Shown: positions 18,860-54,042 of the stretch, in pieces
Position numbering within the stretch: the first letter of the stretch is position 1
Layout: every line of letters begins with the position of its first letter
Assembly: GCA_963514005.1 (NCBI GenBank)
Contig: OY740795.1
Span: 44,020,001-44,084,000, forward strand
Length of the DNA stretch: 64,000 nucleotides
Origin: Raja brachyura
Taxonomy: Eukaryota
Direction: 5' to 3'
Program-made: the position numbers and the translations under genes
The notes under the pieces: generated by a model
What the model saw: only the letters and a program-made list of their open reading frames with translations
What the model was told of the DNA's origin: nothing
Database searches by the model: none

Positions 18860-20293
18860 CTGGGAATAAAGAACACACCAGTTAGGGGATAGTTAGGGGA
18901 TTGTGCAAAAAGTCTGCAAAAGTGCTGACACCTTAATGAGCTGAAAATAAATACTAGAGGCCTTATTTTACAGTTAAATTAAACTGTCTTTGCAGCGAGC
19001 GTGGAGTGGTGCCAGAATAAAGATGCTCCTTTCAAGAACAGTTTATGTAGTCACTATAAATACCTGTCATTCATGCAGGCTCTGTAAAAGCTTTCTCTTA
19101 TAATTGTGTCTCTTAAAAACCCGCCACACTAATTACAATTTAATCTGCCTATTATGTTAACAAATGAATGCAATTCATGAGAATATTCTACTCACCATTA
19201 TCAGGCCCTAAAACACCCCTCAAGCTACTCATTTAAATAGTTGCTGTTTTCATTGATCTATTGATATATTGATTAACTAGTTTATCTAATTAGAATTACC
19301 TCACTTGAGAATGGGTTCACATGAAAGGAGGCAAGGATTCTGAAATTACCACAAACTCTTTAATAAATCAGGAGGCTTTCCTGCTTTCTCTTGGTAAATT
19401 ATCCCAGGTCAATTTTCCACTTGCATTTAAGCACTAATAATGAACTTTTTTGCATCTGAAAAGAAAGGGCTGAATATGAATGGTGAAAGTGTTTTCAATC
19501 AGTGTAAAATAAGCCTCCCTCAAGTTCATTTTGATGGTGATTGGTCTTGGTATGTCAATGGAATTTCCTTTTTTGAGTGAAAGAGTTTCATTCTGCATCC
19601 AGGTTCAGGGACTGGCCATTGGATGTGTGATGGATAGAGACTTCTCTGGCACCCAGCTGCTTCATAGCAAGGGAGAGCATACAAAATGCATGACCCTGCT
19701 TTAATGCTAGAATTGCTTCTGCGAGGTTTATTTTGAAAGTCCCTTCGCTCGGTTTAAAGTTTCCAATGAAATGCAACGCACTAGTCTCGTGAAATGAATT
19801 TTTGTTTTTGCATATACAATCTGCTTAATTATGCATTGAATTGACGTTGACTTGCAAAGGTTTTTTTTATGATTATCGTAAAATATCATTTTAATCCTAC
19901 ACATTAAGATGTGCCCCTAAAATGTACCACGTGTTGTTCAAGTAAGAACATCGAGTTCTAACCACCTAAATGAGATGAACTCCAAATTTCTCAATCACGT
20001 CTCTCAAGCAATAAAGCGTGTACATTGTGTTAGGGTCAAACTTCCGAACCTGGGATTGGCATGGAGTAAGCAATGGAATGTCCTGACTGGAGTGTAAATA
20101 ATGATTGCATTATTGGAAGGAGCAGTTGCTGACAGGAGTTATGTAAATCAATTTGCACAAACATTTTTTATATAGTTGTGATTCTTGGAAGCTTTTTAAA
20201 AACTTTTCACGGATTTAGTTTAGGCGTAAAATACCACTTCTCCTGACCTCGCCAGTACACCAATGTGGCCCTTGCCCCTTTCAGCTGAATAGT

Positions 20294-20493
20294 CACAAAA
20301 TGCTGGAGTAACTCGGCGGGAGAGGCAGCATCTCTGGAGAGAAGGAATGGGTGACATTTCGGGTCGAGACCCTTCTTCACCCGAAATGTCATCCATTCCT
20401 TCTCTCCAGAGATGCTGCCTATCCCGCTGAGTTACTCCAGCATTTTGTGTCTATCTTCGGTGTAAACCAGCATCTGCGGTTCATTCCTACACA
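20294..20493. mobile_element. Penelope-derived foldback element with 15-bp TSD
   Basis: 71-bp inverted arms at 20294-20364 and 20379-20449. Flanking direct repeat TTTCAGCTGAATAGT at 20279-20293 and 20494-20508. Confidence 0.9.
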
Positions 20494-22634
20494 TTTCAGC
20501 TGAATAGTGTTTGTTGCCTCTTCAGATAATAAAACAACCATATAGTAATGAATTTGGAACCATGAATATAATGTCGAAATGATGTGCCAAATATGCGATC
20601 ATTTAAAACACAAAGTGATCAAAATGTCTTTTTCCTACATTTTATTGTAATGTAGAATAAGAATAGATTTGGTTTCTGATAGCAATTATTTTTTTAAAAA
20701 GACTGAAATACAAGACATTAATAAAAAAAACCAGAGGACCAACCCCAACCATGTTTGATATGTCACCTTATATTGGCCATTTACTGAAGAATAATATGCA
20801 ATTCAGCATAAAGCACTGAAGAAGACTTCCCTTCACACTCCTGTAGTGCACCTCAAGAAAGGTGCTGAGGCAGCAAAATCAGTAAAATGAATTGCCTGGA
20901 ATTTGACATCACGTTAAGTCCAGTTAAACCTTCTGAGAGGCAGGGAGATTAGCTGAAGAGACCCAAGAAAGTCCTTCTAGTGACTAGTGCTTCCACTGTC
21001 GACCACAAGATCACAGGTGACGGATGCTTCTTTTAGTCATCAGTGAGACAAAGAGGACATGTCCACTCATTCTAGGTTTGACCTTCTGCTCCACATCAAT
21101 GGATCAATATCACCAATGCCACATAACCGAGATGCATGAAAAATGGAAACACTACTGTATTTTTGCAGCGAGAATTTTTTTTTCCCCATTATAAAATTCT
21201 TCTGTTCAGTCTTTGGTAAGTATATTTGGTGATTCTTGAAGGTGGGAGTCTTCCATTCCTCGTTAACTATAGTTATGTTTCTTAACACCATAATCACAGG
21301 GCACAATTTACAGCTTAATATCAGTTATAAATGAAACATGCTAGACTTCTAACCATGCAGTTTCATCTTTCTACCCTGGAAACAATTTTCAATTTCTGTT
21401 AACCACCCTGCCTTTTGGGATATTACATTGGTGCAGAATTAAGATAAATGTGATAAAAAATGATAATGTGCTTATTCAATCCACATTTTCACTAAATAGT
21501 TGCCTTTTCCTGTAAGAAACGTAGAAATTTGCATTAGGTACAAAGCAACTGTTTTTATATTTTGTAACTATTTTGTAGCTCTTTGAGCAAACAATACAAA
21601 GATCCCACCTAATAATTTAAATGGTTAAATGAACAAGTGAGTTTTGTGTATGGGAGAAAAAACTGCTGCATTAATATTCATTGGGAAATATTAACCAACT
21701 GAAGACCATGACCAGAGTACCCACTCACAAAATTAATTTTGGCAAAGAGAAATCATTTGAGTTTAAATTAAGACAAGGCAAAAATCCAAATTCTGGTATA
21801 AAAATGTTTTTTTTCTTTTTTGAGGCTTTCTTGCCATTTAAGTGAATAATCTATTGTACACTAATCTTCAGCATTCTTCTATGTTGGTCCAAGGACTAGC
21901 TGTTATAAATCTACCTCGAAGACTAAAGGTACGTCCATTTATTAAGTAGAGAATCTATATTAATGGCATTATTAGTTGGACAAATGAATTTAGAACTGAT
22001 TTAATCAAGAGCAAATAATTTGAATTGAATTTATTATTTTGTTTTTATTGAAAGCTTGTCATGAAGGAGTGTGTTTTAAATTAAACAGGCTTTTAGTAAT
22101 CGCTGGCAGGATTGATTAAATATCCCTGCACTATTTTAAAACGAACTAATCATTTCTGAACTATTTTTTTTACACCGCGTCCAAATGGTACAGCATTGCA
22201 TGTCATGCAGGAACGTACTCTGTTAGAGAATCATAGAATGTGAGTTTGCGTCTGTGATTCTCCACACAGACTTCCTGTTCTCTGCGGGACCGTTTGGGAG
22301 GTACTAGGTGGAGGTAAGGAAAATCGGCAGGTGTGTTAACCCGAGCCACTCTCCTTGTACCTTCTCATAGCTGATTACACACGGTCATTGCCAGAGCCCT
22401 GCGAGCAGGTTACTTGTCCAGCCTTTCAGTCAGGAAATAGTGCATGGCATGGGGCGGTCTAAAGAGGGGAGAAATTAAATAAATAAATATGCGGGTTTCT
22501 AAAAAAAATGTAGACTGACAACTTAACACTAAGTAACAGATATTTTGGACCCCGACTGCCTCCCGTAGCTGAAAAATAAGCTCCCAAAAGATAAGAAACC
22601 GTTAAAATTGCATTTTTACGTTGCATTTATTTAC

Positions 22635-22716
22635 CTGGAATCTACGCATGTCTCTTGGATTTCCTGCATTCTTCAAGCAGTTCTGATTGCACTTGAGGAA
22701 AAACTTTAAGAAGAAT
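22635..22716 (-). CDS. EBF3: EBF3 internal coding exon (82 bp, equivalent to mammalian exon 7), DNA-binding domain: (R)[27 protein letters not shown]
   Basis: Manual reverse-complement translation gives the invariant COE DBD peptide. Acceptor TTTTAG|ATTC, donor TTCCAG|GTAAAT. Too short to appear in the ORF track. Confidence 0.96.
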
Positions 22717-53462: not shown

Positions 53463-53775
53463 CAAGCAAACTACATTTATACAATTCCCATCTTTTTCCA
53501 TCAGTTTTAATGAGCCCACTATTGGTACACTGCTCCCAGTACTCCATAGCACAACAGGTTTGCACCAAGTTTTACCTGTAACACCTTAGCAGGAGATAAG
53601 TCTCAAATCACATCTATATCACATGGTTACATTTTATCGCACAATTTTGATTACCTTTGTTTTGGAATATATTTGCAAAGAATCAAAATTATTAACTATA
53701 GGGTATCGTTAAAAAAGGCACATTTTTGTCACAGTGGTGAACCAATTAGATACAAGATCAGCACTCTATAACCAA

Positions 53776-53903
53776 AGTGTAGGAAGGAACTGTACATGCT
53801 GGTTTAAACCGTGGACACAACAAAGCTGGAGTAAATCAGCTGGTCAGACAACATCTCTGGAGAAAAGGGTTAGGTGACATTTTGTGTTGAGACCCTTCTT
53901 CAG
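53776..53903 (-). mobile_element. Single-arm Penelope-derived repeat with 13-bp TSD
   Basis: Family sequence GTGTAGGAAGGAACTG...GAGACCCTTCTTCAG. TSD ACTCTATAACCAA at 53763-53775 and 53904-53916. Confidence 0.85.
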
Positions 53904-53960
53904 ACTCTATAACCAATGATCATCTTACAAAGTAAAGTCAACATGATTGGCTACTTAGGG

Positions 53961-54042
53961 AAGACACAAGGTGCTGGGGTAACTCAGCGGGTCAGACAGC
54001 ATCCCTGGAGACATGGAGGTCATGTTTTGGGTCGGGACCTTT
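53961..54042 (-). mobile_element. Degraded Penelope-derived repeat arm
   Basis: AAGACACAAGGTGCTGGGGTAACTCAGCGGGTCAGACAGCATC...GGGTCGGGACC aligns by eye with the family. Confidence 0.7.

What the first reader, a model, noticed from the sequence alone, without database searches (positions are those of the whole stretch)
20279..54042. Family of tiny non-coding Penelope-derived retro-insertions with long TSDs whose ends or fold centres fall at the hammerhead
Seen: at least 6 related 80-210 bp insertions (20294, 24654, 26392, 52827, 53776, 53961). They share the terminal sequence of the GIY-YIG-linked element at 18167 but lack coding sequence. Four have 13-15 bp TSDs. In each copy the arm stops or inverts in or right beside the CTGAAGAAGGGTCTCGACCCGAAACGTC motif. 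Inference: this is a MITE-looking but retrotransposed non-autonomous system, in which short pLTR/ribozyme-bearing RNAs are mobilised by Penelope RT/EN (retrozyme-like), at about one copy per 8-10 kb in this window.
Basis: partly seen in the sequence, partly recalled or inferred. Interest (0 to 1): 0.7.

Follow-up and report, generated by a model that had tools for sequence, protein, structure and literature searches.

The report
Penelope run-off stubs mark transcript start
These tiny repeats are real insertions of a short piece of a very common Penelope-type jumping gene, and most of them stop just in front of its ribozyme-like motif rather than at the motif's cut site, likely because the copying enzyme ran off the start of the gene's own RNA, so they are likely by-products and not a separate mini-element.

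Summary
In detail: six short copies, four TSDs of 13-15 bp, 8 of 9 arm ends in or beside a minimal hammerhead. The retrozyme reading does not. In 1.66 Mb of this genome (666 arms), 3' ends fall at two sites (+72, +102; cut site = 0), the known PLE tail. 5' ends pile up at about -30, just upstream of the core, not at the cut site. A 4.05-kb RT+GIY-YIG (Neptune-type) element carries the same segment directly before its 5'UTR and ATG, and 6 of 20 ORF-start-bearing copies that reach -27 stop at the same edge. Every subfamily mixes minis (76-93%) with long copies, hairpin junctions are nearly all unique (73 of 77), and tandem arrays are rare. Best reading (0.68): RT primes internally near the mRNA 5' end and runs off the transcript start at an initiator-like TCAGT; two such cDNAs joined head to head give the hairpins. 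An extra-G (cap) signal was strong in the sample (10 of 14) but weak genome-wide. No RNA 5' end data were available. This scan reached the same reading before, on other DNA of this genome and in other genomes.

The parts
18164..18588 (-). 5'-truncated coding-linked PLE copy: C-terminal end of the GIY-YIG endonuclease (frameshifted near 18437), pyrimidine-rich 3'UTR, min-HHR, tail to about +101
18258..18285 (-). Minimal type-I hammerhead core (-27..0) of the coding-linked copy
   Evidence: features as in PMC4209133
20279..20293 (+). TSD left, 15 bp exact
20294..20379 (-). Inverted tail-less arm (about -26..+65)
20380..20493 (+). Tail-bearing arm (-10/-16..+103)
20494..20508 (+). TSD right
24641..24847 (.). 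Hairpin insertion: 13-bp TSD 24641-24653/24835-24847; tail-less arm on - (5' end -26), 9-nt junction filler, tail arm on + (+17..+103)
26379..26615 (.). Hairpin insertion: 13-bp TSD (1 mismatch) 26379-26391/26603-26615; tail arm on - (-4..+103), 11-nt filler, tail-less arm on + (5' end -28)
52827..52919 (-). Solo tail-less mini (-26..+65), same cluster as the 18167 copy; only a 7-bp flanking repeat
53763..53916 (-). Solo mini with tail (-27/-30..+102) between 13-bp TSDs 53763-53775/53904-53916; TSD shares 3 nt with the 5' end
53952..54042 (-). Older solo tail-less mini (about -21..+72), no TSD found
59154..59246 (+).

Best explanation
The short copies are insertions of the hammerhead-bearing terminal segment of an autonomous 4.05-kb Neptune-type Penelope-like retrotransposon, and they are likely run-off cDNAs made when the element's RT primes internally near the 5' end of its own mRNA and falls off the transcript start, predicted to lie at the A of an initiator-like TCAGT 30 nt upstream of the ribozyme cut site. 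Shown: the segment sits both after the 3'UTR and directly before the 5'UTR/ATG of full-length units; 3' ends fall at two sites about 30 nt apart; 5' ends pile up at about -30; TSDs vary from 9 to 17 bp; hairpins pair one tail-bearing arm with one tail-less arm. Inferred: the endonuclease nicks both strands about 13-15 bp apart. Each nick primes RT at one of the two internal start sites, as shown in vitro for the anole element PAc. Priming in the downstream repeat of the RNA gives ordinary long 5'-truncated copies. Priming in the upstream repeat gives copies of at most about 135 nt. If both cDNAs are kept they are joined head to head through microhomology or filler, giving the roughly 200-bp hairpins. 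The template is mostly uncleaved, sense RNA.
For: Architecture: HHR+tail is followed by 5'UTR and ATG at +136 in a 4,043/4,051-bp tandem unit; ORF about 1,190 aa with RT and GIY-YIG. 3' ends are bimodal at +72 and +102/103, matching the two RT start sites and tail in PMC11167929. Of 376 arms that reach -27, 285 end by -41; 14 of 548 end at -1..+3. Base-frequency survival in 108 anchored solo minis falls from 0.86 at -28 to 0.28 at -31. Genome-wide, 17,088 of 71,966 exact matches beginning at A(-30) lack the templated C before it; G+A counts are 13,031 at -31 against 3,587 at -27. Long copies carrying the ORF start stop at the same edge: 6 of 20 that reach -27 end at -27..-35. Extra G before A(-30) in 10 of 14 solo minis (5 of 8, then 5 of 6 in stretches fetched later) and 0 of 75 long arms. 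TATA starts at -62..-59, i.e. about 30 nt before that A, in 12 of 61 long arms (related copies, so not independent). All 5 clusters contain minis and long copies. 77 of 89 classifiable hairpins have one tail arm and one tail-less arm, p=4e-13.
Against: No RNA 5' end was seen: the runs found are contigs and cannot show starts. The extra-G signal is much weaker genome-wide. G is 42% of non-C bases at -31 against 26% background, but G/A is 1.20 there against 1.09 at the control position -27, and microhomology with flank or with the other arm can also supply a G (the window's 53776 copy is such a case). Ends are smeared over about -24 to -35, and many fall inside the core. 14 of 20 ORF-start-bearing copies run on past -35, so RNAs or template jumps that extend upstream are common. 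Older subfamilies may lack a matching 3'UTR reference, which would inflate the count of minis. Full-length units were examined for the youngest subfamily only, not for the one that most window copies belong to. Which arm is made first is unresolved (tail-less arm longer in 44, tail arm in 29, p=0.10).
Confidence: 0.68

Rival explanations
1. Solo minis are themselves templates: they keep the initiator-like start and downstream sequence, are transcribed into the flank, and internal priming at +72/+103 regenerates the same unit, giving a Pol II, SINE-like non-autonomous family.
For: Minis are 76-93% of arms in every cluster, about 0.67 million by extrapolation. D. virilis Penelope has an internal promoter (PMC2377424). 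Internal priming removes the need for a defined 3' end (PMC11167929). pLTRs sufficed for mobilisation in trans in Adineta (PMC3846280 passages).
Against: No mini-only cluster; the nearest neighbour of a mini is a long arm in 31% of cases although long arms are 18% of 458. Upstream 6-mers of 74 solo minis are all different but one pair. Hairpin junctions are 73 distinct of 77. These tests cover only 0.06% of the genome, and an exact regeneration would leave no junction mark.
Confidence: 0.14
2. The -30 edge is not the transcript start but a splice acceptor or a copying barrier on a longer RNA: a pyrimidine tract followed by CAG at -31..-29, or the near-palindrome around -28 at which cDNA folds back.
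For: Long arms show a pyrimidine tract ending in (T/C)CAG just before the core. In D. virilis the intron ends at the 5' end of helix I (PMC4209133). Several hairpins join at the near-palindrome.
Against: No shared exon-like sequence upstream of the edge in minis. TSD-anchored minis have only a few extra bases there. The edge is the same in clusters with different upstream sequence. 91 arms pass it without trouble.
Confidence: 0.12
3. Retrozyme-like: ribozyme cleavage (as dimers) releases short linear or circular RNAs that the PLE proteins insert.
For: The min-HHR core is conserved (intact in 68 of 387 arms spanning it). Among 30 ORF-start-bearing loci one begins exactly at +1 and others at +3 and +10, so some templates may be cleaved.
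Against: Cleavage predicts 5' ends at +1; the rate there is background. Tandem head-to-tail arrays, the mark of non-LTR retrozymes (PMC7229834 passages; bioRxiv 10.64898/2026.07.22.740005), are rare. Stem I is 2 bp or less in 61 of 68 intact cores. In PAc uncleaved RNA is the main template.
Confidence: 0.05
4. MITE-type DNA transposon with terminal inverted repeats.
For: Hairpins look like inverted repeats (110 of 467 insertions).
Against: 326 of 467 insertions are single arms; TSD length varies from 9 to 17 bp; arms are unequal and end at different sites; the sequence is contiguous with an RT/EN element.
Confidence: 0.01

Closest known systems
EN+ Penelope-like element insertions with inverted 5'-truncated copy and one-sided 30-40 bp tail (PMC8557442 Fig. 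2 legend; PMC3846280; passages read)
   Same: Head-to-head inverted arm, tail on one end only, partial tandems, TSDs, pLTR overlapping the 5' end of the next unit, initiator-like motif in the pLTR
   Different: Here the typical insertion is only the terminal 100-200 bp, at about 3 per 10 kb, with a sharp upstream limit. PMC3846280 proposes self-priming on an antisense template; the edge at the sense initiator fits a sense template better (inference)
PAc, Poseidon element of Anolis carolinensis (Frangieh et al. 2024, PMC11167929; parts 1-2 of 4 read)
   Same: Two internal RT start sites bracketing the tail about 100 nt downstream of the HHR, both DNA strands cut and extended, HHR cleavage not needed
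   Different: PAc is Penelope/Poseidon clade with the ATG inside the HHR. Here the ATG is at +136 and the ORF has the Neptune/Nematis linker. Run-off minis are not described in the parts read
Minimal hammerheads of metazoan PLEs (Cervera and De la Pena 2014, PMC4209133; parts 1-2 of 4 read)
   Same: [quoted passage not shown]
   Different: Helix II 4 bp and helix I about 2 bp here against 7-8 and 4-5 bp in Schistosoma. That paper ascribes singles to truncated PLEs and maps no breakpoints in the parts read
Animal non-LTR retrozymes (PMC7229834 passages; bioRxiv 10.64898/2026.07.22.740005 parts 1-2 of 5)
   Same: Non-coding, type I HHR, related to PLE pLTRs
   Different: Retrozymes are head-to-tail tandem repeats with canonical HHRs, processed to circles. 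These copies are solo or head-to-head, carry a minimal HHR, and do not end at the cut site

Membership tests
EN+ Penelope-like element (autonomous partner) | Single ORF with RT and C-terminal GIY-YIG | tested here: met
   L104 ORF 1,192 aa: RVT_1 E=2.5e-4, GIY-YIG E=1.7e-3, both below the Pfam gathering score
EN+ Penelope-like element (autonomous partner) | pLTR from tandem or partial-tandem units; inverted 5' copy; one-sided tail | tested here: met
   4,043/4,051-bp tandem in L116; head-to-head long pairs L118-L120; ends at about +67/72 and +102
Neptune/Nematis clade | CX2-5CxxC linker before GIY-YIG and two Cys inside GIY-YIG (PMC8557442) | tested here: met
   C-x4-C-x2-C linker and YCIRCSRC..YIG in the L103 and L104 ORFs
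Neptune/Nematis clade | Placement in Neptune rather than Nematis by RT phylogeny | not tested
   No reference PLE proteins were fetched; 'Neptune' rests on the linker and on recalled taxonomic range
Minimal type-I hammerhead | CUGANGA, bulged base, G10.1-C11.1, GAAA, palindromic helix III, UH | tested here: met
   Column frequencies; intact core in 68 of 387 arms
Minimal type-I hammerhead | Helix I of 4-5 bp | tested here: not met
   0-2 bp in 61 of 68 cores, 3 bp in 7; only three positions were scored. No Rfam hammerhead hit in the window
Minimal type-I hammerhead | Self-cleavage | not testable with these tools
   Needs an in vitro assay
Non-LTR retrozyme | Head-to-tail tandem repeats with an HHR in each unit | tested here: not met
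   436 of 467 insertions are solo or simple head-to-head; 19 groups with adjacent same-strand arms listed, few with two full cores
Non-LTR retrozyme | Unit boundaries at the cleavage site | tested here: not met
   14 of 548 ends at -1..+3
Non-LTR retrozyme | Monomeric linear and circular RNAs | not testable with these tools
   Only contig-level runs were available
Non-autonomous family (SINE-like) | Own lineage with shared ends, junctions or private mutations | tested here: inconclusive
   No mini-only cluster and no shared junctions in 1.66 Mb; small sample
MITE | Fixed short TSD and matched TIRs | tested here: not met
   TSD 9-17 bp; 77 of 89 hairpins have unequal outer ends

The most novel reading that the evidence does not exclude
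Because the promoter lies at and downstream of the -30 start and RT primes internally, a 100-135-bp PLE 5'-end copy is a complete self-regenerating unit: a Pol II-driven, poly(A)-free SINE equivalent. The roughly 0.7 million minis in this genome would then be partly self-amplified, and the hairpins would record a dimeric RT/EN that assigns one RNA start site to each DNA nick.
Probability: 0.15. Interest if true: 0.72.

Novelty: new variant of a known kind. Interest (0 to 1): 0.4.

Why it matters
How Penelope-like elements insert is still poorly defined. If the reading is right, hundreds of thousands of copies map the transcript start, the two priming sites, the nick stagger (about 13-15 bp) and the pairing of one start site with each nick. 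They also indicate that the hammerhead sits at the very 5' end of the mRNA and is usually copied uncut. Each point can be tested with CAGE and the existing in vitro PLE assay. Practically, these hairpins will be mis-annotated as MITEs, miRNA precursors or retrozymes.

Tried and rejected
Rfam: no hammerhead family hit; only sub-threshold miRNA models on the 20294 hairpin. Pfam on the 42-aa window fragment: nothing. RNA evidence: 24 runs listed, all contigs, most of uncertain RNA or DNA nature; 4 were laid, no start sites and no GT-AG joint among the rows shown, so uninformative. Fold-back with a fixed first arm: not supported (44 vs 29). Hairpins from two different subfamilies: 19 of 65 pairs fell in different clusters, but the clear ones lack a TSD and the TSD-bearing ones are ambiguous, so no evidence for two unrelated RNAs. 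MFE folds do not give the hammerhead shape (z 0.51, -0.71, -2.32). Equating the HHR's ACGT with the Drosophila DPE: the spacing from A(-30) fits roughly (consensus recalled), but in D. virilis the DPE and the HHR appear to lie on opposite sides of the intron, so this was dropped as evidence. Cap-G as proof of the start: kept only as a hint after the genome-wide control. Empty sites in relatives: no relatives are held for this genome. Dfam and Repbase were not available. Supplements of the papers were not read and may hold chondrichthyan min-HHRs or boundary data.
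Full report
Coordinates within the element are given relative to the hammerhead cleavage nucleotide (last C of the GAAACGTC box = 0; the CUGANGA box starts at -27). 'Arm' means one stretch matching the repeat; 'mini' means an arm with no detectable extension into the 3'UTR.

Observation. The motif matches six places in the window at up to 6 substitutions, and BLAST with window copies finds the six named insertions, the coding-linked copy at 18164-18588 and a seventh short copy at 59154. 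Four TSDs of 13-15 bp are there as stated. Eight of nine arm 5' ends lie in or within 3 nt of the motif. The 18167 copy ends in the C-terminus of a GIY-YIG endonuclease; that 42-aa piece has 82,482 first-look candidates in the genome.

Sample. I took the window plus 160 stretches of 10 kb chosen by position (20 next to the window, 140 dispersed), 1,664 kb in all. A profile of the -45..+105 segment found 666 arms and none in the reversed sequence; 29 arms near stretch edges were dropped. The 467 non-edge insertions are 326 solos (248 mini, 78 long), 110 simple head-to-head hairpins and 31 others. Median length is 100 bp for solo minis and 202 bp for hairpins. Dispersed stretches hold 3.0 insertions per 10 kb, or about 0.8 million genome-wide by extrapolation. 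TSDs scoring 9 or more occur in 37 of 110 hairpins, 36 of 248 solo minis and 6 of 78 long solos, against 0.3-1% in shuffled pairs; lengths are 9-17 bp with one of 21.

3' ends. They cluster at +72 and at +102/103. This is the optional 30-40 bp tail of PLEs (PMC8557442 passages), which in the anole element corresponds to two internal RT start sites used on both DNA strands (PMC11167929). Of 110 hairpins, 89 could be classed; 77 have one tail arm and one tail-less arm, 11 have two tail-less arms and 1 has two tails (p=4e-13 against independent choice). Solos split 145 with tail to 153 without.

5' ends. Ends per nucleotide at risk are 0.005 at -1..+3, rise to 0.07-0.09 at -27..-41 and fall to 0.009 or less beyond -50. 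The -32..-41 part is smeared by weak profile columns; base frequencies in the 108 solo minis that could be anchored put the drop between -28 (0.86) and -31 (0.28). Genome-wide exact counts agree: before the 19-mer starting at A(-30) stand C 54,878, G 7,103, A 5,928 and T 4,057 times, and G+A departures number 13,031 at -31 against 3,587 at -27.

Autonomous partner. A young subfamily has at least 150 copies identical over 100 aa. Twenty such loci show ORFs up to 1,226 codons and a tandem unit of 4,043/4,051 bp, with RT and GIY-YIG matches and the CX2-5CxxC linker that marks Neptune and Nematis. In these units the HHR and tail are followed directly by a short 5'UTR and an ATG at +136, so the segment is both the end of one unit and the start of the next. 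Of 150 listed copies carrying the ORF start I examined 30 loci (two repeat earlier loci and two are one insertion). Twenty reach -27, and 6 of these end at -27..-35, while 14 run on into an upstream unit. The other ten end at -17, +1, +3, +10, +16, +16 (next to N), +54, +71, +121 and +130. Long copies therefore share the edge, and a few start at or near the cut site.

Is -30 the transcript start? The conserved sequence there reads (T/C)CAGT, an initiator-like motif (consensus recalled), and 12 of 61 long arms have TATA about 30 nt before the A. PLE pLTRs are reported to hold the start site and an Inr-like motif. An untemplated 5' G is taken as a possible sign of cap copying in L1 (PMC9341517 passages). 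Solo minis ending at A(-30) have G before it in 10 of 14 cases (26% expected; 5 of 8 in the stretches where I first noticed it, 5 of 6 in later ones), with no excess at four neighbouring ends and 0 of 75 in long arms. Genome-wide the excess is smaller: G is 42% of non-C bases, and G/A is 1.20 against 1.09 at the control position and 0.71 in flanks. Those counts mix hairpins, point mutations and microhomology, so I treat the G as a hint only. Public runs gave contigs only and no start sites.

Is it a separate family? Clustering 458 arms into 5 groups gives mini fractions of 0.76-0.93 with long arms in every group and at least one arm reaching -200 or beyond in each. Junction coordinates are distinct in 73 of 77 asymmetric hairpins; the repeats use a near-palindrome around -28. 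Upstream 6-mers of 74 solo minis are unshared but for one pair. Head-to-tail groups are few, unlike non-LTR retrozymes. Hairpins are mostly mini with mini: 218 of 543 mini arms sit in simple hairpins, while 9 of 90 long arms have a head-to-head partner. All this fits repeated independent events from autonomous RNAs, but exact regeneration from a transcribed solo mini would look the same and is not excluded.

Ribozyme. The core fits the minimal hammerhead of PLE repeats, but stem I is 2 bp or less in 61 of 68 intact cores and predicted folds do not form it. Activity is untested; the ends say the template was mostly uncut.

Novelty. The layout (inverted arm, one-sided tail, TSD, dispersed minimal HHRs) is published. 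Six paper searches on PLEs listed nothing whose title, abstract or passages read describe a run-off class limited by the transcript start; the library lacks most subscription papers, and Dfam and Repbase were not checked. I wrote my reading before looking at the scan's notes. Those notes show the same family and the same run-off reading many times, including in this genome; they are unchecked AI notes and add no support. Verdict: real, abundant, a by-product of a known class with a testable mechanistic signal; interest 0.4.

Noticed in passing
   Followed up: yes
L106:9139-9712; also G000:C1:6549368-6549495: About ten head-to-tail 54-bp repeats of the +7..+64 part of the repeat in L106; a 54-bp period of the -30 motif in C1. 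Microsatellite-like stutters of the terminal segment.
   Followed up: no
L103-L122, L203-L232: A very young subfamily with many intact 1,200-codon frames and tandem arrays (4.05-kb period; four units at C18:46361415-46373489); likely still active.
   Followed up: partly
L118, L119, L120: Long head-to-head pairs (1.4-3.3 kb arms) follow the same rule as the minis: one arm with tail, one without, and in all three the tail-less arm reaches further 5'.
   Followed up: partly
L215, L210: ORF-start-bearing copies whose 5' ends fall at +1 and +3, at or next to the predicted cleavage site; may record rare self-cleavage.
   Followed up: partly
window 20307-20435: The hairpin gives sub-threshold Rfam miRNA-precursor matches (MIR2118, mir-9186); such hairpins could be mis-called as miRNA genes or form dsRNA when transcribed.
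   Followed up: no
window 18164-18288 (-), 20379-20494 (+): An 8-bp stem between about +21..+28 and the tail appears in both predicted folds; it may present the RT start sites.
   Followed up: no
L053, L060, L062: Three loci share 0.7-2 kb including flank (85-89% identity): a PLE insertion that was itself duplicated as part of a larger repeat.
   Followed up: no
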